This document shows, piece after piece, positions 574 through 63,271 of a stretch of DNA of 64,000 nucleotides. The first letter of the stretch is position 1. Each line of letters starts with the position of its first letter. Source of the DNA: Chiloscyllium plagiosum (Eukaryota); NCBI RefSeq assembly GCF_004010195.1, contig NC_057718.1, forward strand, positions 83,496,503 through 83,560,502, written 5' to 3'. The position numbers and the translations under genes were made by a program. The notes under the pieces were generated by a model, which made no database searches, had not been told where the DNA came from, and worked only from the letters and a program-made list of their open reading frames with translations.

Positions 574-706
574 GTTCTGAGAAAGGGTCACTGGACCCAG
601 AATGTTAACTTTGATTTCTCTCCAAGGATGCTGCCCAACCTGTTGAGATTTTCCAGCAATTCCCGTTTTTGTTTGATTTCCAGCATCTGCAGTTCTTTCG
701 TTTTTT
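574..706 (+). mobile_element. Short PLE-derived repeat, family B, with degenerate hammerhead at 5' end
   Basis: gttCTGAGAAagggtc-actg-gaccc-AGAA-tg-TT-aac followed by the GATGCTG..CAGCATC body; same family at ~4190, ~10835, ~20800, ~23790, ~25425, ~44470, ~53660. Confidence 0.75.
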
Positions 707-923
707 TATTCTCTCAGTGAGAATGCCGATTAGTACTGAATTGGGTACAGTTTTGTCCATGTTCAATAAGGACATCAAGATTGCTGAAGCTCAGTTTGAA
801 TACTACACTTAGCAAAAAAAAACTTTTAACTCAGCAATTTATGCTTGATCTTCATATCCAGAAGGTGAGAAAAATCTAGCTCAATGTACTGAACTACCCA
901 GTTCACTAAAGCAATAGTTATAA

Positions 924-1094
924 GGTGTGGTGCTGAAAAAGCACAGCCGGTGAGGTAGCATCTGAGGAGCAGGAGAATCGACGTTTCGAGCATGAGTTCT
1001 GATGAAGAGCTCATACTCAAAATGTCAACTCTCCTACTCCTCAGATGCTGCCTGACCGGCTATGCTTTTCCAGTACCACATTTTTTGACTCTGA
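924..1094. mobile_element. Palindromic (head-to-head) PLE-derived repeat, family A
   Basis: Left arm gtgtggtgctgaaaaagcacagccggtgaggtagcatctgaggagcaggag is the approximate reverse complement of right arm ctcctactcctcagatgctgcctgaccggctatgcttttccagtaccaca; centre has CTGATGA. Confidence 0.85.
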
Positions 1095-1869
1095 TAAAAT
1101 AGCAAACATGATATTTTACAATGTGTTAGCAAAGCTTACACCAGTGAGATGTGGGATTGAGAATTCCCATTAACGTCAGAGTTTTCTATTCGTAAGCCGT
1201 TGGATTACAGAAGTAGAATTTATTGGCACAGATCTGAACTGTTTAGTCATCATATTACCACAGAAATAAACTACTTACGTATTTAAACTGAATAATCTTG
1301 CAAAAAACAAAATAATTCAGTTTAGCAAGATTTTAAAATAAAATTCTTCCAACAAGCTAATAACCAGATACACAGGGCTACAAAATATTCTTTAATCAAA
1401 AGTTATAGAGATATAATTGGATCCCATCCTAACTCAACCGAGCATACTAGAGGCTGTCAGACAAGATCATAAACACACAGTGACTGCTTGTCACATGTCC
1501 TTCAACACTCCTATTGGTTTCCCATTCATTCCCTAATACTTGAAGACATTTTTGTCAAATGTAATCTTTTTCTTTAACATTTAGAATAATTTAAAATCAG
1601 ATTCTGAGTTGATGTTTTGATGGAAAAGCAGAACTCTTGTTACCGAAGGCCAACACAAAGTCAATTCAGACCTCTAATGTGATGCAAATCTGAGCAGAGC
1701 AAAGGCATGGTGACTTTAAGTCCAGCTAATTACTGTACCAGTACTGTCTTCTCTCACTGTTTGGCAGGCATGGCAATATAGAATTATTGGCATTTCAAAG
1801 CATGCTCAGGACTCAAACTCATTGGTAATGTCTGCTACTATTGAATGCATCAGAATTATAAAGCACTGA

Positions 1870-2235
1870 AGGAAGCCATTTCATCAATGTATAAAGTCTT
1901 AAATGGTTAGATGTGGAAAGGATGTTTTCTCTTGTGATGGGTCCAGAAGTACAGGTTACTGTTTTAACATTAGTGATCACTATTTTGAGACTGAAATTAG
2001 GAGAATTCTCTTTGTGTAGAATTACTGTATCTTCCTCAGAAGGCAATGGTAGTCAGGTCAGCGAATATTTTTAAAGTAAAGGTAAATAGATTCATGGAAG
2101 GCCTGGTAATCAAAGGTTATCATGAGTAGATGGAAATTTAGAATTTGAAACAATTGTTTACTGGTGATCCTACTGAATAGCACAGCAAGCTTGAAAAGGT
2201 CAAAATGGTCTACTTCTGCTCCTGTTTCATATTTC
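1870..2235 (+). mobile_element. Old CR1 LINE 3' end fragment
   Basis: Similar to the 3' UTR of the CR1 at 39080-39431 (…aaatggtctacttctgctcct…). Confidence 0.6.
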
Positions 2236-2789
2236 ACATGGTCCATCATGCTTGTGTGCCAGCTCTTTGGCAAGTTCTGATTTCACCCTAATCCCTCTGC
2301 TTTGGCACTCCTCTTTGCCAAAATCTCTATCACCCATGTAAAATATTTGCCTTCAGAAATGCATCATTAAACAGCCACATGTGCCCTTCATAAACAGACA
2401 GATCTCCAAATCTTGAGAATTGTAAATAACTACAACACAATTTTTAAAAAAATTATTTGACACACTGTACCAATTAGAACTTAGATAATTTTGAAGTGAA
2501 ACTGATCTGAATTATTTATAACCAGGTCATTGGACAGGATCTCATCTGTAAGGTCAATAAATCATTTTGTGGGGAAAAACAGGAATCTAGCAACATTAGA
2601 CACATAACTAGGGGGTGTTGGTAATGAAGTAGATATATAATCAAAAAACTCATCTCAAGATCGAATAAGGCACCATGGATGTAAATGATCTAATTTGTTC
2701 ACAGTGGCCAGAAGGTTAAGAGAACAGGGATTTTGTCGGGTACTGAAGGAACAAAGTACAAAAATCCAGAGTGACACTCTCATGAAGTG

Positions 2790-3112
2790 CTAAGGAAGTT
2801 CTATACTGCTAGGATTTCCAGTCTTTCAGATTAGGTATCAAACCAAAGCTTGGTCTGCTCGCTCAGGTGGATCTAAATGGTCCCATGCCATTATTTAAAA
2901 CAACTGCAGGGGAATTATCACTGAATTCCGAGTCAATGTTTATCCCTGATCCACCTCAACAACAAAAAAACTATCCAGTTATATCACTTGGCTATTTGTG
3001 GAAATTTGTATATGGCTGCTAGATTTTCTACAATAAAGTAGTGATCAGAGTTTAAAAGATACTTCATTAATTAAGGAGTGCTGCAAGATCTTCCACAGGC
3101 ATGCAAACTTTT
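2790..3112 (+). mobile_element. Deu-domain SINE (SacSINE1/AmnSINE-like), degraded
   Basis: gtctttcagattag..aaacc..ctgctcgctcaggtggatctaaatggtcccatgccattattt..gtcaatgtttatccct resembles the Deu core as I recall it; weaker copy at ~25075-25235. Confidence 0.65.
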
Positions 3113-4607
3113 TCTCCCCTCAATTTTCCCCAGTACATAAACTAAAAACCTTTTGCTCATAGAGTACTGAGACGAGAGAACCAGTGAGCATAAAAGAGAA
3201 ACTGCAGGGGATTGAGGTAGCCAGTTGTTAAATAAACCAAAGTCAGCAATAATTAGAAGTTATCTACAATTCATGGAGTGTGGTGTTATCCCTGATTAGC
3301 ATTTTATTTATAAAACAGTGCAATTAATTTCTCAAAATAATGCAGCCCAATAATTACTCAGTTTATCTTTGTCTAACTTTCTTTTATCCACCTTCTCCTT
3401 GCATATTCATGTATCGTGAACAAAAAATGATCACAAGTTTACCTTATATAGCTCACACAATTTTCTATTAAATATAGTACATCATTCTTTATTTTTTCAT
3501 GTGAAAAGAGGCTTTATTCAGATTTACTACAACAAATTTTAAACTTAGTGCTTATGGTTTCTTCTTGAGCACCTCCTCAAATAAATGTAGCAACATGGTG
3601 AAAAGCTGACAGCAAACATAGAAACCATTTGTAAATTTGCTTCACCATGTATCATAATGCATGAGCTTAATGATTTTTTTATACTAAGAATTGTCAATTA
3701 ACTACCAAAATTTCATATAATTACTTAAGTCCATCAGCAGTAATCAAATCAAGTTCAATTGAAAGTTTAGTTGTTTAAAGCTGCATCAGCACAATTTGGA
3801 ATCAGTCTGTACCCTGCTTGATAATATCCAACATCAAGATAAAACTTTCAACACTAACATTCTCATACCAAATCTGAAGGTCTAAGCCTCAACTCTGGAC
3901 TCGAAAGGAATCAAAGAATGAAAGGCTGGTAATTGCAATTCATGTTCTAAATCTTTTTTTACTATAATTTATCACTTGTAACTGAATTAAAGGCATAACT
4001 TTAAAGCAACTACAACTGAAAACAGCCTTATCTGAAGTAAAGTTTTCTTAACAGGAAAACTATATACATTCCAAACACAGGATCCTGTATTAAAAACAAA
4101 GCGCCTGAATGACTCAGCAGATCTGGCAGTATTTATAGAGAGAAAAATACAGTTAACTCCATTTTGAATAGAAGTCATACTGGATTTGAAACAGTAGCTG
4201 TTTCTCTCTCCACAGGTGCTGTTAGTCCTCCTGAGTTTTTCCGGTGCTTTGTTTTTATTTGAGATCTCCAGCATCAGCAATACTTTGCTTTTGTTAGTGT
4301 TCTGGATGTCTTGCTTCAATTAACAAGTACGAACCGGACTGATTACAATTGCTTATGTTCTTTGCAATCTATGACAAACACTAAACCACATTTTTGCTTC
4401 GTAGTTTCCAACTTCAATGAAAAACTGTATTAATACTGAAGCAAATTGGAAAGGAGAGCCAGATAAGTGAAGAGGGAGAAAGGAATAGAAAAATATGAAG
4501 GCAAGGTCAGATGACACAGAATGGAAGGAGACAGCTATGAAATTGTGCTAAATGACCAGTTATTTTGTTGCTATTAATGTTATGTAAAGAACTACATTAA
4601 AAAAGGG

Positions 4608-10834: not shown

Positions 10835-10957
10835 AAATGAGGAAGGGTCACTCGATCCAAAACGTTAACTCTGATTTCCCTTCACAGATGCTACCAGAGC
10901 AGCTGAGTTCTGTTTTTGCCTCTGATTGACAACATCCACAACTCTTTCGGTTTTTAT
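10835..10957 (+). mobile_element. PLE-derived repeat family B
   Basis: atgaggaagggtcactcgatccaaaacgttaac then cacagatgct body. Confidence 0.7.
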
Positions 10958-11454
10958 GTAGTATTTCACAAAGGAAGCCTGCTGTAAACCTTCAAAGGGT
11001 AATGACAAATGCTAATTAAAGTGATCTCTAGCTGACAGTGTGCTCCAGTTTGTTTTTAAAAATATCTCAGAGTAATCTGCCTCTTATCATCTCTGATGAA
11101 ATATATTAGAAAACCAAAGACTAGAAGGGAATCAACTAATCTCTACTTCATGGTTTCTGTAAGCCACCTCTCACTTGCTCATGCTCCACTCCATGTCACT
11201 TTCAATCACAGCATCATGATTAATGGACCTTGAACTCTCAGCAAATCTCCTGTGATCTCTTCATTTACAGTAATAATACCCTCTCACCCCATGTTTCAAT
11301 AGGCCCATCAAGATAAAGGCTGACCACATCACATCAGCTGGCCAACAACATACATTTCAACTCTTGGCAGCAGTCATAGTGCTATCCACTCACACCTCAG
11401 TGGTTTTCCAAAAACAAACTACCAACTACTACCCAAACCAAGTAATCAAATTGT

Positions 11455-12595: not shown

Positions 12596-12614
12596 ACTCT
12601 ATCTTCAAATAAAA

Positions 12615-13218: not shown

Positions 13219-13562
13219 TGTTATGAAGATGTGGGTGTACTGTACCGTTAAGAGAGTTAAAAGCTAGCAGTACTACCTTACAGCACCAAGTCTTCTGAAT
13301 ACAATACAATGTAACATGTGGTCCAGCAGCTAGGGTAGCTGGCTGCCTGGAGACAAAAACAAATTTGAATTTGGCCAACCAGTTTAAATTGTACTCCAAA
13401 AGAAATACCAAACTCCAATCAAGATTGAATTTGGTATATTGACAATATTAAAAGCCAATGACACAATCCAATGCTTTGGGGGTATAAGACTGGGAAAGAT
13501 TTAGCAGTTGGGAGAGAACTGCCAAAAGACCAACAGGTGTAGGCTACTAGTCAGAACTCAGA
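13219..13562 (+). mobile_element. Truncated LTR-like sequence
   Basis: Starts tgttatg exactly where the CR1 breaks off; TATA-like gggtataag at ~13482; 3' end lost. Confidence 0.5.
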
Positions 13563-13563
13563 G

Positions 13564-13695
13564 GTAGGAGAAAGCGAGGACTACAGGTGCTGGAGATCAG
13601 AGATGACAGTGTGGTTCTGGAAAAGCACAGCAGTTCAGGTAGCATCTGAGGAGCAGGAGAATCGAAGTCTCGGGTATAAGCCCTCCATCAGGAAT
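13564..13695 (-). mobile_element. PLE-derived repeat family A, degenerate hammerhead
   Basis: gagaaagcgaggactacaggtgctggagatcagag…ataagccctccatcaggaat. Confidence 0.8.
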
Positions 13696-13971
13696 GGCTA
13701 GAATTGCTCGGAAGGATTTAAACTAGTAAAGTGGAGAGGATGGGACCCATGGAGATAGTGAGGAAAGAGATCAGTCTGAAACTGCTAAAGTTGAGAAAAG
13801 GAGCGGGTAGACTTGTTACAAAAGGTCAACAATTATTGTTACAGGAAAGCACTCCCTCATGGTACACGTCATTAGCTCTAAAAACAAAATTTGCCACGTC
13901 AGTAGCCAATCTGCCATAATGCAGAAAGCGTATTGATCTGGGCACTTCATGACTTGAACATCTCAAGCAAA

Positions 13972-18960: not shown

Positions 18961-18961
18961 C

Positions 18962-19692: not shown

Positions 19693-19772
19693 ACTTAGAG
19701 ATGTACAGTACGGAACCAGTCCCTTCAGTCCGACCTGTCTATGCAGACCTGATATCCTAAACTAACTTAGTA

Positions 19773-20282
19773 CTGGATGTAGGTTTGCTCGCTGAGCTGG
19801 AAGGTTCGGTTTCAGACGTTTTGTCATCATTCTAGGTAACATCTTCAGTGAGCCTCCAGACAAAGGACTGCTGATGTTTCCTGCTTTCTATTTTGGGGTT
19901 TCTTTGGATTGGTGGTGTCATTTCCTGTGGTGATGTCATTTCCTGTTCTTTTTCTCAGGGGGTGGTAAATGGGGTCCAAGTCAATTTGTTTGTTAATAGA
20001 GTTCTGGTTGGAATGCCATGCTTCTAGGAATTCTCATGCATATCTCTGTTTGGCTTGTCCTAGGATGGATGAGTTGTCCCAGTCGATGTCACCATAGGAA
20101 ATGACATCACCAATCCAAACATATAAATAGAAACATGAAACATCAGCAGTTCTTCGTCCGGAGGCTCACTGAAGATGTCACCTAGTATGGTGACGAAGCG
20201 TCTGAAAATGAACCTTCCAGCTCAATGAGCAAACCTACATCCAGAACCTCAACCTGAGCTACAAATCTTCTCAAAACTCACT
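19773..20282. mobile_element. Penelope-like element family C (Poseidon-like), inverted pLTR pair with endonuclease tail
   Basis: Arms 19773-19935 and 20087-20245 are reverse complements; minus frame DWDNSSILGQAKQRYA*EFLEAWHSNQNSINKQIDLDPIYH; hammerheads in both arms. Confidence 0.85.
20166..20205 (+). ncRNA. Minimal type I hammerhead ribozyme motif (A15.1 mutated to G)
   Basis: tca-CTGAAGA-t-gtcacc-tagtat-ggtgac-GAAG-cg-TC-tga; 6-bp stem II, 3-bp stem I. Confidence 0.7.
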
Positions 20283-20919
20283 AAAACCTAGCCCCATTTG
20301 CCAGCACTTGGCCCATATCTCTCTAAACCCTTCCTATTCATATTCAACCACAGCTAACCCATTTCCAGAACTTGCAGTAGAGCCAGGGAATCTATCTTTA
20401 CTTTCATCAAAAGAAGTTGAAGTAATCGAGAAAGGAGAGTTGTAAACTTAATTAGAAATACATATTATTCATAAATTCCTCAGAATCAAGGAAAACCAGA
20501 ATTATAAAAAGGTAAGGAATGCGCATGCCCTAGTGAAAACAAGTCGTGTGTCACATGCTACTGAAAGCCACTCGAAGTGGAGCCTGGATGACAGAGTTCT
20601 TTTATTTATATCTGTCTGTGCATTTGCTGGCAGAAACCTAACTTTTAGCCCATTTACTGTCATAACCACCAAACTTATTACTGACATTTCCAGCATCTTG
20701 ATCTTTGGATAGGACAGATGCAAAGCACTCATTATTACCTCAGCTATAATCTCTGCCTCCATGTGGGACACAGAGAAGGAAAGAGAAAGACTAATGACAT
20801 TACATCAATCTGATCAATTAACTCTCTCTCCACAGATGCTACCCTGCCTGATTATTTGCAGCCTTTTTTCTCCCATTTCATTTCACTAGAATATTGGAAA
20901 GGAACTGGCTCCCTCCAAG

Positions 20920-21963: not shown

Positions 21964-23623
21964 TATGTAATTCCAAACTCAAAATAGCATTCACTATTAA
22001 CTACAAATGAAATCTCAAACCTGCAAAAGCTTCAACAAAACATTTTAAATACAACACAAAGAATTCACCTTAGGAAAGGGAATTGCTAAAATTTCTTCAA
22101 ACACCATTGATCACTGCTCACCGAAAGTCTGACAACTCATAACACAGAAGGAACAGACAAAACTGTAGTGAATTTCTACTGTAGATAGCATATCCAAACG
22201 ACAGACTTTGTGAAGGAACTGACACATACTTGTGAGCAAATGTCACTACATATCTCTATTACATACTGTCACAAATTTTAATAGCTTTCCAATTGTACTT
22301 TATGCTGCTAAATGGACGATTAGACTAACTGGAATCAAGTTCAAGAGAAACTTGAGCTGCTTTTACACCCTTTGTTAAATGCAACTGACAATTCAAAGAC
22401 TGGACAGCCTTTTTCCCCCCGCTCAGGCAGAAACTTAAACTCCAACTTCATAAGTAATCACATCACCCCCAAACAAGAATACAATTTGGCAATGCTAAAA
22501 GCATATATCTCAAATAATCAGGACTATTTAACAAAATACTGAGCAAGAGAAGTTACGAATTTCAATATCAATGTTCAGCAGCATACAAGATGCATGCAAG
22601 TCAACCTTTCATTAGCCACAACAGGCATTTGCATTAAGCCTCAATCTTTCCACCCCATAAATACATGCTTTACTTACCAGTACCTTATAATTGAGTACAA
22701 GGAATAAGCCAGGTGAAATGGGTTGCATTGCCAAGATGCATAGGAGTTTAAGTCAGTCACTCTTCGTATAAAATGCCAATGACATTTCAAATATTCAAAC
22801 ACCCATGTCACTGGTACATGCATATAATGGAAATAAGAGTCAACTCTCCTATTGGAAGGGAAATTTTGGCTTCAAAAGACAACTTGCGTGCCATGATCCA
22901 AGTTACATAGCCATTTGTTTCCATTAAAGAAGATGACAACACAAAACAGATGCAACTTATGTTTGAAATTACCCCTTAAGTGCCTGCTGACTTCTCATTC
23001 AAGATCACATGAATTCTCAAGCAGCAAGTCCTGAATCTTGGCCATCCTGTCACAGAGAATGCCAAATAAGGTCTGGCACCATCATGGACACAAGTGGAAA
23101 AATAAAGTTTCTCTCAAGTCTCCAAACAGATGAAAAGAATGGTTACATGACAAAAATGAAATTGGGACATGGCAAATAAACTTGAAGACTGTCATTGTTC
23201 CATTGCCCAATCTCTTCTTTTCCTATTACCATCTTCATCCTTGCTGTCAGTTAAAATGATTTCTGTCTTCCATCCTAGAAATCAAATCCCAAGCTCAGTC
23301 CTCACTTAAATGATTACCAGATCTTCACCTTTTGTCAATCTCAACAAAAAGCCATCGACCTGAAACATTAAACATTGCTCACCACTGATGGTGTCTGAAT
23401 TTTAAGCATTTTTCAGGGTTTTTTTGTTTTTAATCCAACAATTTTATGCACATAGCTTGTTTTTATTCCCCCTTGAAAAGTGATTTTGTAAAAAATCAAC
23501 TATAACACTCAAACAAATATACAACCACTCAAATTTCATTTGACTGGATTACTTTTTCATATCTTTAGCACAACAAAAAGTTCATCTTTTAGTTTTAAGG
23601 TTGTTAGTGCATTACTGGAAAAA

Positions 23624-23767
23624 TCTTCGAGGAGAAAGTGAGGACTGCAGATGCTGGAGATCAGAGCTGAAAATGTGTTGCTGGAAAAGCGCAGCAGGTC
23701 AGGCAGCATCCAAGGAACAGGAGAATCGACGTTTCGGGCATAAGCCCTTCTTCAGGAAGCCCTTCCT
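23624..23767 (-). mobile_element. PLE-derived repeat family A with intact hammerhead, 14-bp TSD
   Basis: TSD cattactggaaaaa at 23610-23623 and 23768-23781. Confidence 0.9.
23724..23758 (-). ncRNA. Minimal type I hammerhead ribozyme, intact core
   Basis: Minus strand ttc-CTGAAGA-a-gggc-ttat-gccc-GAAA-cg-TC-gatt. Confidence 0.8.
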
Positions 23768-25424
23768 CATTACTGGAAAAAGGTTAGCCCCAGCTCTGAA
23801 AAGGAGTCATAATGGACATTAGCTATGTTTTTCTCTCCACAGACGCTGCCAGATTAGTTACATTTCCCCAGGATTCTTGGTATTTGTTCCAGATTTCCAA
23901 CATCCGCAGGTTAGCTGGTTAACTCAAATGACTAGAGAGCTGACACGTGGTTCAAAATAAAACTAACAGTGTAGATCTGATACCCATTCCAGCTAAGATA
24001 GACATGTAACCTGCCTCCTTGCTCTGACCCCTGAGATAGGTAAGCAATGGAACTAACCACAGATTGCCAAATACTCAGCTCAGGATGAAATATCAAGACA
24101 ACAAGCTAAGGGCCTGCCTTCAGACAGAGGACAACATGAAGAAATTTATTGTCATGGCATCCGGTGTACAATTATCCTTTGCCAAAATAAAATACAAGTA
24201 GAGAAAATTAATGTGATTTAGCAGGAAAATTTCACATACTGAAACTTTTCTTTGGTATGAAATCTGAAAAGCAGGGATAATAACAACTACCTTTCAGGTG
24301 AAAGGATCTTTCCTGTGACAGCCAATTGCTAAAGAAAACAAAGACTCTTTCTTTAAAATTAATGGTCTTAATCAAGGGACGGAATCTCAATAGTGTATCA
24401 GTACATAATTCAACTGTGCAGGATATTAGAACTGAACCGAATCTGATGACTTTCCAAGCTCATGCGATTTACATCTGATGACATTTTGTGGCATCTCCAC
24501 AAGATTGGTTGCGATCATGGATCAACCAGGAAATTTCATGACTTGTCTACTTAAAATAGGAAGATTTTAACCTCCAAATGAAGACAGAAGAAAGTAATCA
24601 CATTTAAAATGACATTGACTAACTTATTAGCAAGCATGAAGCCTCCAGCCAATAATACTTCTTTGCAACACAGCTATATGTTACAATTCGACATCTGGAT
24701 ATTCATTGCAAAGTTTGTCCCTGAGGTACAGCATTTGGATGACTCACATAAAACTAGCCCTTCACAAATAAGTTGGATCAAGATCTTATATTCTCTTTAG
24801 CAAAATAACATGGAATGATAGATACGGCTCAAAACTTGCATCATGGAATAATCTCTGACCCTCAATTAATAGTTAGTCTACATCCCTCTTTTAGAAGGAC
24901 AGGGAAGGTGGTAAAGAAGAAATAACATTAAATGGATCACAGTTTTTCAAACACTGTGAAGTTACCCAGTTACACTCATTCTCCCAGGAATATCAAGAAC
25001 TGCATTTCAATGAGGCGATGTAAAATGGTGCCATCTTTAGATATTGGTCCTTGATTTTGACAAGGAAGTTGAATTATGTTTTAGATGACACATGAAACCC
25101 AAATTCTATTGTTTAGCTATGCAAGTGGACAAAACAAAACAGGTTCTATGGCACTCTTTGCAGATAATCGAGGAATTCTTTCAGCGGCCTGACCAACATT
25201 CAACCCCTACCAATCACCACAGACATAATTTGGCTTTTACCGGTGTCACTGGAAGGTAATTTTTCACTCTTGTTTATTAGTCTATTAATCTCTTTGTAAA
25301 TAATATTCCTCAAAAATGAATAAAGTAATTTCAACAAAATTGGGTACACACATATGGGAAAATGAATTAGTTTTGGAAAAAGCTATAGATCTTGATCCAG
25401 GAAAATTAATTTAAGTATCCATTA

Positions 25425-25655
25425 ACATTGGGAGAAATTGCTAGAAAAGCTCAAAATCTGTGGAGAGAAATCAGAGTTAATGTTTGGGTTGAGTGGCCCT
25501 TCCTCAGAACGTAAGCAACACCAGTTCTGAAGAGGGGTCTCTCGGCCAGAAACATTAATTCCGATTTCTCTCCATGGATGCTGCCAGACCTGCTAAGGTT
25601 TCCCGCAATTTCTGATTTTGTTTCTGATGTAAAGCATCCCCAGTTCTTTCAGTTC
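25425..25655. mobile_element. Palindromic PLE-derived repeat family B
   Basis: Minus gttCTGAGGAagggccactcaaccc.. and plus gttCTGAAGAggggtctctcggccaGAAAcaTTaat, back to back around a ~12-nt spacer. Confidence 0.8.
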
Positions 25656-25829
25656 TCACTAACACTGGGAAATGAAACAGATTGACTTATTTTCAAAAAG
25701 TATAGAATAAAAAATTCTATGCATTGTTCTCTTTAGAAATGTTGTTGCTTATTAACATCGTGGATTGTCTCAGCTGTTGCACTGGAGTTTGTCATTGTCA
25801 AAATATGAACAAAGTTTTCAGAGCAGGCT

Positions 25830-28800
25830 ATTCAATATGGCACTGTGGGCCATCAACAGCAACATAACTCTACTCCAGCACAATCTCCAACCTCATGGCC
25901 TGGCATATCCCCCACTCAACCATCATCATCATCAACCCTGGCTCAATGGAGAATGCAGGAGGGCATGCCAGGAGCAGCATCAGGCATACCTAAAAATGAG
26001 GTGTCAACCTGGTGAAGCTACCAAATAGGACTGCCTGAGTGACAAACAGCATAAACTGCAAATGATAGACAGAGCTAAGCGATCCCAACAACCAACAGAT
26101 CAGATCCAAGCTCTACAATCCTTCCACATCCAATGTGAATGGTGATGGACAATTAAACAACTCACGTGAGGAGGAGGCTCCACAAACATCCCCATCCTCA
26201 ATGACAGAGGAGCCCAGTACATCAGTACAAAAGATAAGCTGATGCATTCGCAACAATCTTCAGTCAGAAGTGCCTGGCTCCTCCAGTGGTCCCCAGCATT
26301 ACAGGTATCAGTCTTCAGTCAATTTGATTCACTCCACATGATATCAAGAAACAGCTAGAGGCACTGAATACTGCAAAGGTAATTAGCCCCAATAACATTC
26401 CATCAATAGCACTGGACATGTGCTCCAGAACTTGCGGCTCCCCTAGCCAAGTTCTTCCAGTACAGTTACAACACTGGCATCTACCTGACAATTGGGGTCA
26501 AGAGTGTGATGCTGGCAAAGCACAGCAGGTCAGGCAACATCTGAGGAGGAGAATTGACATTTCGGGCAAAAGCCCTTCATCAGGAATGGGGGCTGAGAGA
26601 TAAATGGGAAGGGGGTGGGGGAGGTAACTGGGAATGCGATAGGTGGGGAGGTGATGGTGATAGTTCAGAGAGGAGAGTGAAGCGGATAGATAGGAAAGAT
26701 GATGGACAGGTCAAGAAGGCGATGCCGAGTTGGAGGCTTCAGACGGGGGTAAAGTGGGGGGAGGGGAAATGAGGAATCTGGAGAAATCCACATTGATGCC
26801 ATGTGGTTGCAGAGTCACAAGGCGGAATATGAGGTGTTCCTCCAGGCATCCGGTGGTAAGTGTTTGGCAGTGGAGGCGGCCAGAACCTGCATGTCCTTGG
26901 CAGAGTGGGAGGGGAGTTGAAGTGTTCAGCCCCCAGGTGATGGGGCTGGTTGGTGCGGGTGTTCCAGAAATGTTCTCTGGGACGATCCGTAAGTTTGTGC
27001 CCTGTCTCCCCGACATAGAGACCACATTGGATGCAATAGATACATAGGATGACATTGGAGGTGGTACAGGCAAATTTCTGTCAGATGTGGAAGGATCCTT
27101 TGGTGCCTTGGATGGAGTAGAGGGAGGTGGTGTGGGCACAGGTTTTGCGCTTCCAGCTGTGGCAGGGCAAGATACCAGGAATCAGGTGTGGGTGCCACCT
27201 ACAAACACACCCAATCACCAGAGATCAATTTCCCTCCCCACACTTATCAGCGTTCCGGAGAGACCATTCCCTCTGTGACTCCCTCGTCAGATCCACAACC
27301 CCCCCCACCAGACCACACCCAACTCCCGGCACCTGCCCCTGCCACCACAGCAAGTGCAAAACCTGTGCTTACATGTCTCTCCCTTCACCTCCGTCCAAGG
27401 CCCAAAAGGATCCTTCCACATCCGACAGAAATTTACCTGTACCTCCACTAATGTCATCTACTGAATCTGTTGCACCCAATGTGGTCTCCTCAACATCAGG
27501 GAGTCAGACGTCAACTTGCAGATCATTTCAGAGAACATCTCTGGGACACCCGCACCAACAAGCCCCACCACCCCATGGCTGAACACTTCAACTCCCCCTC
27601 CCACTCTGCCAAGGACATGCAGGTCCTTGGCTCCTCCACTGCCAAACTCTTACCACCCAATGCGTGGAGGACAAATGCTTCATATTCCGCCTTGGGACCA
27701 TGCACCTACAGGGGATCAATGTGGATTTCTCCAGTTTCCTCATTGTCCTTCCCCCCACATTATCCCAGTCCCAAACCTGCAATTCTGTACCGCCCTCTTG
27801 ACCTGTCTATCACCTTTCCCATCTATCCACTCCACCATCCTCTCCGACCTATCACCTTCTCCCTTACCTTCATCTACCTATCACATTCTCAGCTACCATC
27901 CCCCCAACCCCATCCTCTTCCCATTTATCTCTCAGCTCCCCCAGCCCACACGCCTCATTCCTGATGAAGAACTTATGCCCAAAACTTCAATTCTCCTGCT
28001 CCTCTGATGCTGCCTGACCTGCTATGCTTTTCCCGCACCACACTCTCGACTCTGATCACCAGCATCTGCAGTCCTCACTTTCTCCCAACATGGAAAATTG
28101 CCCAGATATGTCCGGTACACAAAAAGCAGGACAAATCCAACACAGCCAATTACCACTCTACTCTCCATCATCAGTAAATTAATGCAAGGGGGCATCAACA
28201 GTGCTATCAAGCAGCACCTACTCAGCAAGAACCTGTTCAGTGACGCCCAGTTTGAGTTTCGCCAGGGTCAGTCAGCTTCTGATCGCATTACAGGTTGATT
28301 CAAACATGGACAAAATAGCTGAATTCCTGAGGTGAGGTAAGAAAGACAGCCCTTGACATCAAGGCTGCATTTGACCGAGTATGGCATGAAGGAGCCCTGG
28401 CAAAACTGAAATCAAAGGGTATCAGGGGGGCAAACACTCCGCTGGTTAGAGTCATACCTGGCACAAAAGAAGATGGTTGTGATTGTGGAGGGTCAGTCAT
28501 CTCCGCTGCAGAACACCTCTGCATGAGTCCTTCAGGGTAGTGCCCTGGGCCAACAATCTTCAGCTGCTTCATCAATGACCTTCCCTCTGTCATAACGTCA
28601 GAAGTGGGGATGTTCATCCATGATTGTACGGTGTTTAGCACCATACGTGATTCCTCAGATACTGAAGCAATCCGTGCTCAAATGCAACAAGATCTGGACA
28701 ATATCCAGGCTTGGGCTGACAGGTGGCAAGTAACATTCGCACTACACAGACAATGACCATCACCAATAAGAGACATTCTACTCACCGCCCCTTGACATTC

Positions 28801-43835: not shown

Positions 43836-44863
43836 TGATGTAAACTGTGAGATTTATATCTATAAAATTTAATATTTGTTGCGAGTATGGGTTTCAGGTC
43901 TTGGAATTAGTAACTGGTAGGTTTTCTGCTTGTCTTCTGCCTACTACCTTGTAAGCATTTCTGTAGCCATTATGATTTTTAAAAAGTTTCTGAGGACTAG
44001 TTTTAGAATGAATGGATTTTGTGCACCATTTATTGTATAATGTTCTGCCACACAGCATGATAAGCTAGAATACAATAGCTGTTTAGAAAAGTGCTATCAA
44101 GAAAGGTAGGGTTTGCAGTGAACTAAATTACTTTAGAGTCAAGAGGTAGTGTTAGTCCCAGACCTGATGAGCAGGATGTACCTGAAGGAGATTAAACCTG
44201 AGTCAATTTGAGTGGTGTGTGACAGCTTCTTCCAGGACTATCTGCAATCCAGTCTAAAAGTCTCAAATGACCTAAACCTCAAGGTGTTAAGTTACTGGGA
44301 CATTGGTATGAGTATTAGCATGGGTGGTATTTTGGGTACTGTGTTTTAGGTACCTTACCAATGAAGTTTTAATTCTTTTTAATTTATTAAAGGAGCATTT
44401 TGGAATCATACTTTCAGTGCGTTTAAAAAATGTTATCAATAGGTGGTTTGCTATATACTATCTTATAACAGAAAAGCAAAACATGCTTGTAGAAACTCAG
44501 CATCTGTAGATAGAAAGAGAGCTAGTGTTTTGAATCTGATGAAGAGTCACTGGACACAAAACATTAACTCAATGTTTCTCACCACAGATGCTGGCAGAGC
44601 CAAGTTTCTCCAGTACTTTGTTTTTGTTTGTTTCAGATCTCCAACATTCATTGTTCTTTGAGTTATTTGATTCTATCTTATCTTTATTTATTTTGCAATA
44701 AACTTTTGTTTCATCATCAAAGCAAAACATGCAGCATTGTGTGCTATGCTTCAGTGAGAAAATATTTTGTTAAAACCAAATCATGCAAGAATATGATCCA
44801 TCAGACCAGATTCATGTCAGGGATCTTACTTGTCTAGTAATAACATCAGATAGGATAATAACA
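43836..44863 (+). mobile_element. Solo LTR (~1 kb) with 6-bp TSD, containing a family B PLE repeat (~44470-44660)
   Basis: ttggtc|TGATG…TAACA|ttggtc; AATAAA at 44697. Confidence 0.7.
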
Positions 44864-51230: not shown

Positions 51231-51336
51231 AAAACTATTGAGAGGTCTGTGGTTCATTTCTCAGACCAACGTCCTACCCATTCAGTACAATTTGGAGGTG
51301 CCAGTGTTGGATTGGGATGGACAAAGTTAAAAATCA

Positions 51337-51660
51337 GGTAGGCGAAAGTGAGGACTGCAGATGCTAGAGATCAGTCAAGATTAGAGTGGTGCTGGAAAAG
51401 CACAACAGGTCAGGCAGCATCCGAGGAACAGGAAAATCGACGTTTCAGGCAAAAGCCCTTCATCAGCGAAAAGGCGGGAAGCCTGCAGGGTGGAGAGATA
51501 AATGAGAGGGGGGTGGGGCTGGGGAGAAGGTAGCTAAGAGTACAACAGGTGGATGGAGGTGGGGGTGAAGGTGATTCTGATGAAGGGCTTTTGCCCAAAA
51601 CGTCAATCTTCCTGCTCCTTGGATACTGCCTGATCTGCTGTGCTTTTCCAGCATCACTCT
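51337..51660. mobile_element. Palindromic family A PLE repeat, 14-bp TSD
   Basis: TSD aaagttaaaaatca at 51323-51336 and 51661-51674; hammerheads on both arms. Confidence 0.9.
51435..51468 (-). ncRNA. Minimal hammerhead motif, intact core
   Basis: cg-CTGATGA-a-gggc-tttt-gcct-GAAA-cg-TC-gatt; stem I poorly paired. Confidence 0.65.
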
Positions 51661-53099
51661 AAAGTTAAAAATCATACATCAGGCTATAGTCCAACAGGTT
51701 TTATTTGGAAGCGCTGCTCCTTCATCAGGTGGTTGTGAAGGTTAAGATCACGCTCACAGAATTTATAGCCAAAGGAGTCCAGTGTCATGGTGATGTGATA
51801 TAGCAAACAACCTTAAATAAACACTTTCATCTTTTATAATGGGATATGCTGGTTTCTGTTCTTTGATATGTAAATCCATTCAGAGTCAATTTGCCTGGTT
51901 TGAAATCTAAAAAAAGCCTAGCAGTGAATGGTCAATCATTAACGGATGTACTCCTCATGACAATGCCTCTACCAGAGACATTCTACCAACCAATCAGTAC
52001 TTTCCTTACATTATAAATGTGGGCTTTCTCCTTTACCGCTGAGAATTGCCCTGTTTAGGGCAAGACAAAAATGTATCTTTTTGCAGCAATACTTTCTGGT
52101 TAACCACAAATGGAGAGTCCTCTCTTGGGAATTTTTCTCTCTTGTGGGGGATGGATCTATTTTACGTAATCATACATTTCCCTTTAAATTTATGACTCTG
52201 CAATTCTATTAATCTATCCCTTAACCTAAATTTGCCAGTCTATTTCAGTTAGCTCTGTTTTCATACTCTCATTATTCCCTTTATTTAAGTTTAAAATACT
52301 AGCTTTGGGTCCACCCTTCTGTCCCTTAGACTGAACGTTAAATTCAATTGTGATCACTGCAACCTAGGAATACGTTCACCATGATGTCACTAATTAATTC
52401 TATTTGTTGCACAATTCCAAGTCTAGTACAGCCTGCTCTCTGGTTGACTCCAGAATGTGCTGTTTTGAGAAACTATGGCAAAAATATTTAGGAAAAGCCT
52501 CTGTGATTTCTCCAATCGTAAGTGGTTTAAAATCTTCCATGGTTACGATCTTTCTGACAAGTTGCCACCATTTCTTCTTTTATATTCCATTCAGGAGGCC
52601 TATGTACCACTCCCACAAGTGACTTCTCGCCTTTATTGCTAAACTCTACCCAAATCACATTTATATTATGGTTTCCTGAACTTAGTTAATCAGTTTACTT
52701 TAACTAATAGAGCCCCCCCCTTCACTTTTCCTAGCTTCTGGTCCTTCATAAGTGCCCCATATTTTTCAATATTCATGCTCTAATCGAGATCATTCTGCAG
52801 CCATAGTAATCAGAAAGCTATCAGATTTCATTTACTGATTTCTACTGTAGAAGCACTTATTAATGGCCTTCTGAAAATCCAGATAAATTGCATCCAGTCT
52901 GCCTGTCAATCTAGATGTTCCCTTTCAAAGTCCATGTTGGCTATTCAATAGCATTTTTTAAAAATTTCTAGATATTCTACTACTTTCGCTTTTCATAGTG
53001 AAAAATTCATAATTTTTCCCATTACCATTGCCAAGCTGGCTAACAAAGAAAGAATGTGCAGATTTCGATGGGGGAGAGGGAGGAGAAGACAAAAGAAGC

Positions 53100-53500: not shown

Positions 53501-55004
53501 AATAGAAACAAGTCACAAATGGGTATCAAATAGCCAACAGAGAATCAAGGGAGAAGACAGGTCAAAGGTTGGAGAGAGCAGGGAAAGAAGAGATGAGTGA
53601 AAACCAACAAAAACAAAAAAAAGAGACCTTGACTTAGGACTAAGCAGATGATTGTGGAATAAAAATAAAATGCTAGAGAAACTCAGCAGGTTTAGCAGCA
53701 TCTGTGAAGAAACAAACAAAGTTAATATTTCAAATTCAACATGATATCTTCAAAACTGTGTATCAGGTTTGCCACTTCAATATTGCACAGGGAAGTCAAC
53801 ATTGTCTTTAACAGCAGTTCTTGAACAAACAAATGAATTTCACAAATACATACATTTAAAACATCTAAGTTTTCTCACTGTATAATCAATAGCATATCAT
53901 AGAATCGTACAGAAGAGGCCCTTTGGCCCATCAAATTTGCACCAAAAATCAGAAAACTAACTATAATTGGAAAAGAAACATAACCCTTTCTCTCAGTAAT
54001 TTGTCAATTCAAGCAAGTCCAGTCGCAATTCATGTTAATTCTTTATTACACTTAAGTATTGTTGTAACCAACAATAATCACAATAATATGTTAATTAACT
54101 TATACAGATAATGTATTAGAGATTCATTCGTGAAACTAAAAGCCAAGTATCACCAGAATTAAAATGAATTAGGTTTCTCCACTTGCACTGATAAAAATAT
54201 ATAAGGACTTTGAGGAAGCTATTTTTAAAATCAGATATCACAGACCACAATGGTATTATGTTCAATTTATCGAAGACAAAAAGATGTTCCCAAGCATTGC
54301 TCAAAAAATGAGGCAGCCATGAGGAAGTCATGCTTACTACCAGTTAACGAATGCAGAAGCAGATCTATCCAGATGAAAAATGTGTTTTTAATTGGTTCCT
54401 AAATTTTTTTTAAAGCTCTACACACAAATTCCACAGTTACATGAATAAATCTCTACATGTGAAATTTCTGTACAAAAAATGTCACGAAGAAACATAGTGT
54501 GATTTTTAATTTGCAGTTTTCTTTACCAAATTTATCTACAATAACATTGGCGGTATTTAAGAGAACATTTTATAAGACATTTTAAATACAGGATATTTAT
54601 TTAGAATTCCTCTCCAATGGAATTATCAAGCTCAATTTAGACACAAAGATCTGTCATATAAAATGACAAGGAATGCCATTATGCAGTAACTGGTTTCAAA
54701 TGGAATAACAAAGGTTTTTGAAATTATGCACAACATAAAAGGCTCAGAATGAGGAGGATGAGGCAGAGGGAACTGTACTAATTACAAGAAATTTCAGTCC
54801 AGTAATTGCTGTTTTAGTTGCAGACTCATTCAACTGCAGTGTGTTGGACAGTAGATGCATGTCCAAAATGTGAGGAGTATACTGGTTAAAATGTTACTCA
54901 GCCCTTAACGAATCTAGATATGGTTGATGCAATTTGAGAGGTTAGTCAGTTTCAGATTTGGGGTTAGTCAGTGACATTTTATAAATTCCTACTTTGGAAA
55001 TAAA

Positions 55005-55400
55005 ACCAGTCTAACTGCAGGTTGGGATACAAACTGACTCTAACCTCACACCTTCAATGCATTGAACACTTTTTAAAATATACTGATAGAACCTTAAGTT
55101 ATGTTGGAGCAGTGATTGAAAGAAACTCTGGGATTTACATATCAATGAATCAAATCCTGCATCCCTATTCTAAGTGGTTAAAGTTTTAACAGCCATCTAG
55201 GTTTGTCTCACACATCGTATCAGTTGTATGACATTTTGATCTTTTACTTATAAATTTAATGTCCGATGTATACTACCCCACCAGCTATCTGACAATGGAG
55301 CAGTGCTCCAAAAGCTTGAACGTTCAAATAAACCTGTTTGACTATAACCTGATGTCATGTGATTTTCAACTTCTTCAATTCAGTCCAGCTCTCACATCTG
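55005..55400 (+). mobile_element. PLE-derived repeat family D with degenerate hammerhead
   Basis: CTGACAA-tggagc-agt-gctcca-AAA-gc-TT..aaataaacctgtttgactataacc. Confidence 0.65.
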
Positions 55401-55409
55401 TGGCTATAT

Positions 55410-59428: not shown

Positions 59429-59557
59429 CTCATTTATCTCTATACCCTTCAGCCTCTCTGCCTGTATTCCTGATGAAGGGCTTTTGCCTGAAACGTCGAT
59501 TTTACTGCTCCTCGGATGCTGCCTGAACTGCTGTGCTTTTCCAGCACCACTCTAATC
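59429..59557 (+). mobile_element. Family A PLE repeat, 14-bp TSD
   Basis: TSD ttgcctacagaact at 59415-59428 and 59558-59571. Confidence 0.9.
59466..59500 (+). ncRNA. Minimal type I hammerhead ribozyme, intact core
   Basis: attc-CTGATGA-a-gggc-tttt-gcct-GAAA-cg-TC-gat. Confidence 0.8.
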
Positions 59558-60804: not shown

Positions 60805-62150
60805 CCTGTTCACGAAAGGGCCGAGGATGAAAACAGGAAACTTTAGGCCAGTTACCTTGACATCTATCGTGGGGAAGGAGTCAGACTCGATTAGAGATTA
60901 TAGTTATGTACTTAGGAAAACCCAAGGTACTGAAAAGATCTAAAGTCGAGCAGCACCTGAGGAGCAGGAGAATCGATGTTCCGGGCATAAGCCCTTCATT
61001 AGGAATGAAGCCGGAGGACTGAGATTTAAATGAGAGGGAGTGGGTCTGGGGGGAGGGTAACTGAGAAGGTAATAGGTCAGAGAGGAGGGTAGAGTGGATA
61101 AATGGGAAAGACGAGGGACAGGTCAAGAGGGTGATGCCAACTAGGACACTTGGGACTGGGATAAGGTGGGGGAGGGAAAATGAGGAAACTGGTGAAATTC
61201 ACATTAATTCCATGTGGTTGCAGAGTCCAAAGGCGGAATAGACAGCTTTCTTCCTCCAAGTATTGGGTGGTTAGGGTTTGGCAATGGCCAAGACCTGCAT
61301 GGACTTGGTGCGGGGTGGGGTGTGTGTGGTGGTTGAAATGTTCAGCCACAGAGCAGTGGGGTTGGTTGGTACAGGTATCTTCGTATGGTGACGGAACATC
61401 TGAAAACGAATCTTCCAACTCAGTGAGCAAACTTGCATCCAGAACCTCAACCTGAGCCACAAATCTTCTCCAAACATGCTAAAATTAAGGATGTTATGTT
61501 TCAGTTATACAATGCATTGGTGAAACCACATCACAAACAATGCATGAAGTTTTGGTCACCTTATTTAAAAAGGAAGAATGTAAATGCATTGGAGGTGGTT
61601 TACTAGAGTTTTACCTGGAATAAGTGGATTATTTTAAGGACAGATTGGCCAGGCTGGGCTTGTTTCGACTGGAGTTGAAAAGAGTGAGAAGTGACTTGGT
61701 TAATTAAGATTCTATACGGTCTTGACAAGGTGGAAATGAATAGGATGGTTTTTCTTGTATGACAGTTCAGAGGTTCAGATCACTGCTCTAAAGGCAGCGG
61801 GTCACTCTTTCAGGATGGAAATGTGAAAGTTTGGAACTCGCTGCCTCAAAAGATGGTGGAGACTACTGAATATCTTTTAAGATGTGGTGCCAGTGTTGGA
61901 CTGGGTGCACAAAGAAATCACACGACACCAGATTATAGTCCAACAGGTTTATTTGAAATCACAAGCTTTTGGACTTCGGGCTGAATATTTTGAACACACA
62001 GGTAGGTAAGTTCTTGGTAGGCAGAGGAAAATCAAGGGTTAGTTGGGGTAGATGGGAATGGGGAATATGAAACAAAGGTCAGCCACAATCTTACTAAATG
62101 GTGGAGCAGGCGCAAAGGGCTGCATTTCTGCTCCTATTTCACGTGTGCAT
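60805..62150 (+). mobile_element. Old CR1 fragments interrupted by PLE pieces
   Basis: GNFRPVTLTSIVGK at ~60840; LYNALVKPH at ~61505; CR1 tail at ~62100-62140. Confidence 0.65.
60942..61376 (-). mobile_element. Neptune-like PLE 3' part (family A) abutting a family C pLTR (61380-61480, +)
   Basis: TNQPHCSVAEHFN…LEEESCLFRLWTLQPHGINVNF; degenerate hammerhead at 60971-61005. Confidence 0.8.
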
Positions 62151-62255
62151 ATTTTCATTAGATATTATCAAAGAAAGCTTAGCGCATTTCTTCAAAATAT
62201 CTTGTGTACGGTGCATACTGCTGCCACTGTACACCAGTAACCGGTAGTCTGAATA

Positions 62256-62560
62256 GACGGCACAGTGGCTCAGCGGTTAGCCGTGCTGCCTCACAGCGCC
62301 AGGGACCCGGGTTCGATCCCAGCCTCGGGTGACTGTCTGTGTAGGAGTTTGCACATTCTCCCAGTGTCTGCGTGGGTTGCCTCCGGCTGCTCCGGTTTCC
62401 TCCACAGTCCAAAGACGTGCAGGTCAGGTGGATTGGCCAGGCTAAATTGCCCATTTAGTTAGGGGGAAATGGGCCTGGGTGGGTTACTCTTCGGAGGGTC
62501 GGTGTGGACTAGTTGGGCCGAAGGACCTGTTTCCACACTGTAGGTAATCTAATCTAAAAA
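62256..62560 (+). mobile_element. HE1-type V-SINE, young
   Basis: ggcacagtggctcagcggttagc..ggttcgatccc; CpGs retained; tail taatctaatcta. Confidence 0.93.
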
Positions 62561-62728
62561 TGGTAATCGGGTGCCAAACAAATGACTGCTTTTTGACAGT
62601 ATACAAGCAACTCTGCCATCTAGCATAAAGCAACTTACTTGACTGATGCTCTGACTACAGACCTCAACAGCCACACTTACCCCACCAGCACACAACAGCA
62701 GAATACATAATCAAAGAATACACAACAG

Positions 62729-62946
62729 TATAGGTAGTTCTTCTATAACATGATGGTTGCATTCTCGTGCAACCCTGCATTATAGAAAAATCACGCTTTA
62801 AAAAGTGCTTATAGTGTTGGTGAGAAAACATCCGAAAATCGTGTTACAGCAACAACTTTTAAAAGTTTGCACTTCAGAAACAGTGTCCCTAGTTCATCAA
62901 TTGTGTTACAACAAATGCAACAAGTATTACAGCAGAATGACCTATA
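62729..62946. mobile_element. Tigger-type MITE
   Basis: Imperfect TIRs tataggtagttcttctataa / ttacagcagaatgacctata with TA ends. Confidence 0.7.
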
Positions 62947-63189
62947 GTCCACTAACAGAATCACTGTGACACCTATCACTGACAAAGACAATAGCAGTTA
63001 GGATCATTAAAATCCGACTGCCTCAATGCACTACTCCAATTTGCACACCATCCTGACTTGGACAAGTTCTGCTGTTTCTTCAATGCAGCTGGGTACACAT
63101 ACTTGAAAATCTTTTGCCATCAACACCATGGAAACACCATTAGCATAAGGATTGAAGTATTTCAAGATACTTGAGCAGGCTCAATGAGT

Positions 63190-63271
63190 TTCCTGAAGAA
63201 GGGCTTATGCCCGAAATGTCGATTCTCCTGTTCCCTGGATGCTGCCTGACCTGCTGCGCTTTTCCAGCAAC
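63190..63271 (+). mobile_element. Family A PLE repeat with near-intact hammerhead
   Basis: ttc-CTGAAGA-a-gggc-ttat-gccc-GAAA-tg-TC-gatt. Confidence 0.85.

What the first reader, a model, noticed from the sequence alone, without database searches (positions are those of the whole stretch)
574..63271. At least four families of PLE-derived short repeats each carry a minimal hammerhead ribozyme
Seen: the fold CUGANGA / stem II / GAAA-NN-UH recurs in four families with different stem II sequences. Family A has gggc-ttwt-gccc (23724, 26552, 51435, 51574, 59466, 63190). Family B has gggtc-actc-gaccc with stem I gtt/aac (574, 10835, 25476, 25523). Family C has gtcacc-..-ggtgac (19812, 20166). Family D has ggagc-agy-gctcc (~51710, 55288). 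Helix sequences differ while core nucleotides are kept. Stem III is a loopless palindrome (ACGU or AGCU). Known: PLE pLTRs carry minimal type I hammerheads thought to cleave as dimers. Inference: this genome hosts abundant SINE-like or retrozyme-like non-autonomous elements of 80-350 bp built around the ribozyme, with more than 15 motif copies in 64 kb.
Basis: partly seen in the sequence, partly recalled or inferred. Interest (0 to 1): 0.8.

Follow-up and report, generated by a model that had tools for sequence, protein, structure and literature searches.

The report
Shark Penelope stubs carrying minimal hammerheads
The short repeats are real, but they are mostly decayed end pieces of known Penelope-type jumping genes in a likely shark genome, each carrying an already described miniature self-cutting RNA motif that is broken in most copies and was likely copied into DNA uncut.

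Summary
Observation confirmed, interpretation partly. The window holds 28 motif-bearing arms in 21 insertions, about 8% of its bases, far above chance. Only 3 of 19 scorable cores are intact, all family A. Families A and B share a homologous tail, so there are three lineages rather than four. Three A copies run upstream into a decayed GIY-YIG endonuclease with a zinc-finger-like linker (Neptune-like). One C copy runs into the end of another RT-endonuclease protein (Poseidon-like). A and C are therefore 5'-truncated ends of Penelope-like elements (PLEs), not free retrozymes. Head-to-head inverted pairs, 11-14 bp target duplications and variable 3' tails are all described PLE traits. Family B (about 130 bp, no shared upstream sequence) remains a candidate non-autonomous SINE-like derivative; D is unassigned. 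Short copies begin 0-7 nt before the catalytic core or inside it. None begins exactly at the cleavage site, which suggests copying from uncut RNA. Decay is CpG-driven with no detectable selection on the core. Cleavage was not tested. The motif class was published in 2014, and this scan has noted the same thing on other DNA (390 findings, at least 33 genomes). New member of a known kind.

The parts
575..707 (+). Family B unit, core C3 at 577, decayed core; 14-bp TSD (561-574 / 708-721)
924..1097 (.). Family A head-to-head pair: minus arm 924-1000 starts in loop II, plus arm C3 at 999; variant stem II with A-U at the second pair
4093..4290 (.). Old family B head-to-head pair; minus arm starts within a few nt of the cleavage site, too decayed to place
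10838..10961 (+). Family B unit starting inside the core; TSD at 10827 / 10962
13562..13697 (-). Family A short copy with full tail, C3 at 13691, core broken
19772..20301 (.). Family C head-to-head pair (C3 at 19848- and 20169+); minus arm 19857-20093 encodes the decayed C-terminus of a Poseidon-like PLE endonuclease
23355..23433 (+). Old family B remnant
23624..23767 (-). Family A short copy, intact motif (C3 at 23755), full tail, perfect 14-bp TSD (23610 / 23768)
23792..23911 (+). Old family B copy with damaged core
25434..25659 (.). Family B head-to-head pair (C3 at 25507- and 25527+); 11-bp TSD candidate with one mismatch
26497..28085 (.). Family A long head-to-head pair: both arms carry a decayed Cys-rich linker plus GIY-YIG endonuclease, 3' UTR, hammerhead (C3 at 26583- and 27961+) and tail
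44467..44669 (.). Family B head-to-head pair (plus arm C3 at 44536); 12-bp TSD with one mismatch
51337..51660 (.). Family A head-to-head pair (C3 at 51466- with about 110 nt of 3' UTR; C3 at 51577+), perfect 14-bp TSD, inserted inside a family D copy
51662..51790 (-). Family D copy (C3 at 51728) lacking the 3' half of the core; its tail continues at about 51295-51336 beyond the family A insertion
53662..53731 (-). Old family B remnant starting in stem II
55281..55374 (+). Family D copy (C3 at 55289), core broken at G8 and G12
59429..59557 (+). Family A copy, intact motif (C3 at 59470; G-U closing pair in stem II), about 40 nt of 3' UTR, perfect 14-bp TSD (59415 / 59558)
60945..61379 (-). Family A long copy reaching the GIY-YIG end (61185-61370), C3 at 61002, core broken
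61380..61499 (+). Family C stub starting in loop II, head-to-head with the family A long copy
61880..61975 (-). Family D stub starting in the 3' strand of stem II
63171..63269 (+). Family A short copy (C3 at 63193), palindrome broken, short tail, 12-bp TSD with one mismatch

Best explanation
These repeats are decayed, 5'-truncated end pieces of at least two Penelope-like retrotransposon lineages plus related short families, each carrying a minimal type I hammerhead motif, and they were likely inserted by the element's own target-primed reverse transcription from RNA the ribozyme had likely not cut. Shown: motif anatomy, endonuclease remnants upstream of A and C, inverted pairs, TSDs, CpG decay. 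Inferred mechanism: the GIY-YIG endonuclease nicks the target with an 11-14 nt stagger. Reverse transcription starts inside the RNA about 50-90 nt downstream of the cleavage site (variable tail), runs back through the intact hammerhead, and usually stops at or just before its 5' edge, giving 80-140 bp stubs. Sometimes it continues into the 3' UTR and ORF of the upstream unit. A second priming event gives the inverted arm. The ribozyme matters, if at all, in the active parent element, where it would cleave only as a dimer and probably needs protein help. The genomic stubs are passengers that decay neutrally.
For: A: a 57-aa stretch upstream of the motif hits 320 proteins at E<=0.001. Two of the hits are 883-894 aa long with the match at the C-terminus. 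Of 9 hits scanned, 7 carry GIY-YIG and 4 also RVT_1. tblastn maps them to 26774-27185(-), 27199-27738(+) and 61185-61370(-), including a CxxxxCxxC linker. C: the upstream frame is 70-90% identical to 6 proteins, one of them a 391-aa RT-thumb-GIY-YIG protein. TSD score >=10 at 7 of 20 insertions against 1 of 300 random pairs. 5' truncation, an inverted 5' copy and an optional 30-40 bp tail are typical PLE traits (PMC8557442); 8-10 bp TSDs and solo pLTRs likewise (PMC3846280). Uncut template: all 19 scorable arms span both sides of the cleavage site or have lost it by deletion, and 0 of 28 arms start exactly there. RNA-read depth rises 5.4-fold across the ribozyme's 5' edge (152 to 822) but 1.2-fold across the cleavage site (1339 to 1624), with no pile-up of ends. 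In the Anolis element, uncut RNA is the main substrate and cleavage needs protein (PMC11167929). Neutral decay: CpG sites in the motif differ in 15 of 60 cells, non-CpG core in 4 of 100, tail non-CpG in 35 of 425 (core vs tail p=0.20).
Against: No reverse transcriptase of a PLE lies in the window, and no genome was available, so no full element was seen. B and D have no ORF link here. The 5' depth step is partly an artefact: the copy used has a one-base offset just upstream of the motif, the 3' UTR is variable, and in the window 5 of 10 full-core A arms do extend upstream, more than the reads suggest. Some inverted joints have their second arm clipped at 59500-59528, so starts at the cleavage site are not excluded genome-wide. 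One old B arm (4093-4160) starts within a few nt of that site. The neutrality test is small (4% against 8% is not significant but leans toward conservation). The RNA run is a poly(A) single-cell library, poorly suited to seeing cleavage ends.
Confidence: 0.85

Rival explanations
1. The short copies, above all family B, are self-propagating non-autonomous elements (hammerhead-headed SINEs) with their own master copies that begin at the ribozyme's 5' edge and borrow the PLE protein in trans.
For: 0 of 7 core-containing B arms share upstream sequence; B units at 575-707 and 10838-10961 are TSD-flanked and 125-135 bp long. 5 of 10 full-core A arms start within about 7 nt of C3. The top loose-end site on the 5' side is 4 nt before C3 in all four runs (1,292 contigs in X1). 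pLTRs alone can mobilise sequence in trans (PMC3846280).
Against: Run-off copying from a full-length element gives the same stubs without separate masters. A copies form a length continuum into the ORF. B is old and n is small. No short-copy-specific diagnostic bases were tested.
Confidence: 0.3
2. They are non-LTR retrozymes: tandem units cut by dimeric hammerheads, circularised, and spread through circular RNA.
For: A few contigs show the unit going back on itself (28085 to 27957 in 9 and 7 contigs; 84-86 nt returns in up to 7 contigs). Retrozymes were reported in one chondrichthyan genome (bioRxiv 10.64898/2026.07.22.740005). A circle would also give copies spanning the cleavage site.
Against: No tandem array of the unit in the window; neighbouring arms are on opposite strands and cannot pair as a cis dimer. 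Only 2,334 of 12,955,460 RNA records lay on the element, in both orientations, although poly(A) selection would miss circles. The tandem joints have unknown sequence between the units.
Confidence: 0.1
3. Some intact copies are retained by the host as working ribozymes that cut the transcripts they lie in.
For: Two copies (23755-, 59470+) keep the whole motif; non-CpG core positions differ less than the tail (4% against 8%).
Against: The difference is not significant (p=0.20). Intact copies are among the youngest (23677-23758 is 97.6% identical to 63190-63271). Predicted stem I pairing probability is 0.03-0.17 and the lowest-energy dimer is not the active fold. No same-strand partner lies nearby.
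Confidence: 0.04

Closest known systems
Minimal hammerheads (min-HHR) in pLTRs of metazoan PLEs (Cervera and De la Pena 2014, PMC4209133; parts 1-2 of 4 read, 2 of 3 supplementary files searched)
   Same: Type I core, extra base between A9 and stem II, G-C closing pair, palindromic 15.2-16.2, no loop 3, several sequence families per genome, mostly single dispersed copies, opposite-strand pairs 100-700 bp apart.
   Different: Host is likely a carpet shark; six shark names gave no hit in the two searched supplements. Stem II of A is 4 bp and stem I only 2-3 bp. Density (2 intact motifs in 64 kb) would, if representative, exceed the 4,000 and 9,000 motifs reported for coelacanth and Xenopus; descriptors differ.
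Neptune-clade and Penelope/Poseidon-clade EN+ PLEs (Craig et al. 2021, PMC8557442; 12 passages read)
   Same: C-terminal GIY-YIG endonuclease; Cys-rich linker in A (Neptune or Nematis trait) and absent from the 391-aa relative of C; 5' truncation, inverted 5' copy, optional tail.
   Different: Only remnants are present; no RT phylogeny was possible, so clade labels are '-like'.
Poseidon of Anolis carolinensis, PAc (Frangieh et al. 2024, PMC11167929; parts 1-2 of 4 read)
   Same: Hammerhead at the pLTR, variable 3' ends downstream of it, copies made from uncut RNA, no RNA-seq ends at the cleavage site.
   Different: PAc was assayed biochemically; nothing here was. A preferred 5' edge at stem I is not described in the parts read.
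Non-LTR retrozymes (Li et al. 2026, bioRxiv 10.64898/2026.07.22.740005; parts 1-3 of 5 read)
   Same: Type I hammerhead, derived from PLE pLTRs, present in a chondrichthyan, monomer derivatives dispersed.
   Different: Defined by tandem units each with a complete motif; the copies here are single or inverted and mostly broken.

Membership tests
min-HHR of PLE pLTRs | CUGANGA, stem II, GAAA-NN-UH core in type I order | tested here: met
   2 exact, 4 one-deviation hits against 0 and 0 in 12 shuffles; family majority of A is complete
min-HHR of PLE pLTRs | Loopless palindromic helix III, extra base after A9, G10.1-C11.1 pair | tested here: met
   ACGU in A, B, C and AGCU in D; extra base and G-C (or CpG-decayed G-U) in all four families
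min-HHR of PLE pLTRs | Covariation in stems | tested here: inconclusive
   Within A, 2 of 6 pairs and 3 cells change on both sides (9 of 500 shuffles), two of the cells at inversion junctions; across families stem II differs wholly and still pairs
min-HHR of PLE pLTRs | Self-cleavage as a dimer | not testable with these tools
   Folding predicts stable stem II, weak stem I and no active dimer at minimum energy; no end pile-up in one poly(A) run
EN+ Penelope-like elements | C-terminal GIY-YIG endonuclease upstream of the pLTR | tested here: met
   Met for A and C; no ORF lies upstream of B or D in the window
EN+ Penelope-like elements | Telomerase-like RT in the same ORF | tested here: inconclusive
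   Absent from the truncated copies; present (RVT_1, mostly below cutoff) in relatives P0021, P0068, P0152
EN+ Penelope-like elements | 5' truncation, inverted 5' copy, optional tail, short TSD | tested here: met
   7 head-to-head pairs; TSD score >=10 at 7 of 20 insertions against 1 of 300 random pairs; A tails end at several points
Neptune clade (family A) | CX2-5CxxC linker between RT and EN | tested here: met
   Seen in both arms of 26497-28085; Nematis shares it, so the clade is not fixed
Neptune clade (family A) | RT phylogeny | not testable with these tools
   No RT in the window; no genome held
Non-LTR retrozymes | Tandem units, at least two consecutive with a complete hammerhead | tested here: not met
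   No such array in the window; a few go-back joints elsewhere in the genome
Non-LTR retrozymes | Abundant circular RNA | not testable with these tools
   Only poly(A) raw reads were offered
Non-autonomous SINE-like derivative (family B) | Fixed short unit with TSD and no link to coding sequence | tested here: inconclusive
   Met in the window (0 of 7 arms with upstream homology) but not tested genome-wide

The most novel reading that the evidence does not exclude
In sharks the PLE transcript starts at the first base of the hammerhead, and reverse transcription primed a short way downstream runs off that 5' end. This strong-stop-like product seeds hammerhead-headed stubs at a density that may reach hundreds per megabase, and family B has become an independent ribozyme-headed SINE moved by a Neptune-like protein. 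The ribozyme would then mark or guard the RNA's 5' end rather than release the template.
Probability: 0.3. Interest if true: 0.5.

Novelty: new member of a known kind. Interest (0 to 1): 0.25.

Why it matters
The role of hammerheads in PLE transposition is still open (PMC8557442). A genome with this many copies of several PLE lineages and ages offers a large natural record of where copying starts and stops relative to the cleavage site, so the cut, uncut and circular template models can be compared from assemblies alone. It also means shark repeat libraries hold many ribozyme-like motifs that Rfam does not flag. The motif class, its PLE link and the insertion shapes are already published, so the finding adds a host and a count, not a new system.

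Tried and rejected
Rfam at E<=1: no hammerhead family; the MIR844 match is just the 924-1097 inverted pair. Pfam on 16 window frames found no GIY-YIG in the decayed pieces themselves, and a word-based protein search of the 113-aa frame found nothing; the full HMMER scan and the atlas did. Own-genome search was not possible. No RNA holder was listed by the run search; this is no evidence on expression. Run X22 laid 0 reads and is no test. Loose ends at 28041-28044 looked like a second fixed 3' end but their consensus continues the element, so I treat them as subfamily variants. Contig counts (94,439 and 74,882 laid from X1) are not copy numbers. Single-strand folding z-scores were unremarkable for 8 of 9 copies. 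No convincing TSD was found for the 926, 4093, 19770 and 26497 pairs, the 13562 copy or the joined 60945-61499 block. A dominant swapped core base, noted for other sharks by earlier findings, was not seen: no non-CpG core position reached 10% other letters. A cap-derived extra G at 5' junctions could not be judged from so few copies. Lunse et al. on dimer cleavage is not held; I saw only its citation and summary in a review (PMC6765202, passages). Paper searches for a shark-specific description: (1 paper, listing only; 0 papers) showed none; Repbase and Dfam could not be searched, supplement file 1 of PMC4209133 and the bioRxiv supplements were not seen, so prior annotation is not excluded. 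The whale shark preprint reports an expansion of Penelope-like elements in introns (10.1101/443036, passages).
Full report
Observation. The named coordinates all carry the motif or a decayed form. A minimal type I hammerhead descriptor found 2 exact hits (23755-, 59470+), 4 with one deviation and 1 with two, against shuffle means of 0, 0 and 0.33 over 12 shuffles. Self-BLAST, family profiles and inspection give 28 arms (A 11, B 11, C 3, D 3) in 21 insertions, covering 5,211 of 64,000 bases. Rfam has no matching hammerhead model at E<=1. Of 19 arms with a scorable core, 3 keep every core base and stem II pair, all in family A; the 51466 copy among them has no stem I (its 61002 row was mis-anchored and was re-read). 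The other 9 arms start inside the motif or are too decayed to score.

Family structure. The A profile finds B copies at E 1e-12 and 4e-11, and the two share the tail downstream of the ribozyme, so A and B are one lineage, B being older. Stem II is 4, 5, 6 and 5 bp in A, B, C and D, with unrelated sequences that still pair. Within A, covariation is thin: 2 of 6 pairs and 3 cells change on both sides (9 of 500 shuffles), and two of those cells sit at inversion junctions.

What lies upstream. Five of 10 full-core A arms extend upstream, three of them into coding sequence. A 57-aa stretch there matched 320 proteins at E<=0.001 and an atlas cluster in which 15% of members carry GIY-YIG. Of 9 hits scanned, 7 carry GIY-YIG and 4 also RVT_1, mostly below the curated cutoffs. 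tblastn places these proteins on 26774-27185(-), 27199-27738(+) and 61185-61370(-), including a Cys-rich linker, the trait of Neptune and Nematis PLEs (PMC8557442, passages). The minus arm of the C pair encodes a broken frame 70-90% identical to 6 proteins, 5 of them from Stegostoma, Hemiscyllium or Chiloscyllium. One is a 391-aa RT-thumb-GIY-YIG protein without that linker, so C is Poseidon-like and the host is likely a carpet shark (inference). B and D show no coding sequence upstream in this window.

Insertion anatomy. Seven insertions are head-to-head pairs. TSDs scored >=10 at 7 of 20 insertions tested, against 1 of 300 random pairs; three are perfect 14-mers. In the 51337-51660 and 44467-44669 pairs the TSD encloses both arms, so each pair was one event. 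The 3' ends vary between a full tail and versions about 25-45 nt shorter. All of this matches published PLE structure: 5' truncation, inverted 5' copy and optional 30-40 bp tail; 8-10 bp TSDs, solo pLTRs and head-to-head junctions (PMC3846280, passages); dispersed single motifs and opposite-strand pairs (PMC4209133, parts 1-2).

Where copies start. Five of 10 full-core A arms and all 7 core-containing B arms start within about 7 nt of C3 or inside the core. None of 28 arms starts exactly at the cleavage site; one old B arm starts within a few nt of it and cannot be placed. Laying runs on the 59470 copy, raw RNA-read depth rose from 152 to 822 across the motif's 5' edge and from 1339 to 1624 across the cleavage site; the top 5' loose-end site was 4 nt before C3 in all four runs, and most listed inverted and go-back joints began within a few nt of it. 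On the long 27961 copy, depth peaked at 169 over the endonuclease and 1,802 over the pLTR. Caveats: the 59470 copy has a one-base offset just upstream of the motif and the 3' UTR is variable, so the step is overstated (the window itself shows half the A arms extending upstream); and second arms clipped at 59500-59528 leave room for some starts at the cleavage site. My reading of a 5' edge at the ribozyme was noted before I looked at earlier findings; several of them say the same and add a capped-RNA idea that I did not test.

Activity. Not tested. Folding gives stem II closing-pair probabilities of 0.91-0.99, stem I first-pair probabilities of 0.03-0.31, and lowest-energy dimers that are not the active fold, in line with the low activity reported for min-HHR dimers and the protein dependence of the Anolis ribozyme (PMC11167929, parts 1-2). 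In one poly(A) single-cell run, 2,334 of 12,955,460 records lay on the element, in both orientations and with no pile-up of ends, which fits passive transcription of intronic copies but cannot exclude circles or cut ends. Decay is CpG-driven: 15 of 60 CpG cells, 4 of 100 non-CpG core cells and 35 of 425 tail cells differ from the majority (CpG vs core p=0.0002; core vs tail p=0.20). Reads agree: the CpG positions carry 8-28% other letters and no non-CpG core position reaches 10%.

Mechanism. Shown: anatomy, ORF link for A and C, TSDs, decay. Inferred from PAc biochemistry and the start positions: endonuclease nick, internal priming downstream of the ribozyme, copying through the uncut motif, frequent stop at its 5' edge, second priming for the inverted arm (confidence 0.85 for truncated PLE ends made this way in outline). 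Whether the 5' edge is a transcription start, a structural stop or the end of short master copies is open. In Drosophila the start site lies 46 bp before an intron (PMC2377424, passages) whose end maps to helix I, so a start at helix I would differ from that case. Rivals: independent SINE-like masters, best for B (0.3, compatible with the main reading); tandem retrozymes (0.1); host-retained ribozymes (0.04).

Novelty. The motif, its PLE link and the insertion shapes are published; retrozymes from PLEs were reported in a chondrichthyan (bioRxiv 10.64898/2026.07.22.740005, parts 1-3) and a Penelope expansion in the whale shark. Four searches showed no shark-specific description of these families, but Repbase, Dfam and some supplements could not be seen. 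If the window were typical, 28 arms per 64 kb is about 440 per Mb and 2 intact motifs about 30 per Mb; this is an extrapolation from a window picked for the motif. The scan has already noted the same thing in 390 findings from at least 33 genomes. Verdict: real, new member of a known kind, interest 0.25.

Noticed in passing
60945-61499: A long family A copy (minus) abuts head-to-head a family C stub (plus) that starts in loop II: possibly a chimera of two PLE lineages made in one event, or one inserted into the other. No TSD found.
   Followed up: partly
51295-51790: The family A inverted pair sits inside a family D copy with a perfect 14-bp TSD, so this A insertion is younger than that D copy.
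   Followed up: yes
996-1033 and 51573-51611: Both plus arms of short A inverted pairs have U-A instead of C-G at the first stem I pair, as if one C were missing before the core; subfamily trait or junction effect unknown.
   Followed up: partly
23758-23767 and 63171-63189: Extra bases between the TSD and the element start: a partial repeat of the core and stem II start in the first, a small palindrome in the second.
   Followed up: no
P0151, P0153, P0154, P0155, P0156: Predicted isoforms of five host genes, four of them from carpet sharks, carry the family C endonuclease tail, mostly as a C-terminus: exonised PLE ends or annotation artefacts.
   Followed up: no
49311-49379: A 69-bp imperfect palindrome (87% arm identity) directly beside the 3' end of a LINE copy.
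   Followed up: no
37100-43100: A decayed L1/Tx1-like LINE (endonuclease and RT pieces; family label recalled) interrupted by another RT-bearing LINE piece at about 38196-39433.
   Followed up: no
30809-33829: A decayed LINE with a GDSL esterase-like first ORF (Pfam E 5e-10), a CR1-type layout by recall; related pieces at 12612-15376 and 49379-50310.
   Followed up: no
6196-6490, 45470-45671, 46274-46636, 62259-62551: A separate SINE-like family of about 300-360 bp, four copies, without the hammerhead.
   Followed up: no
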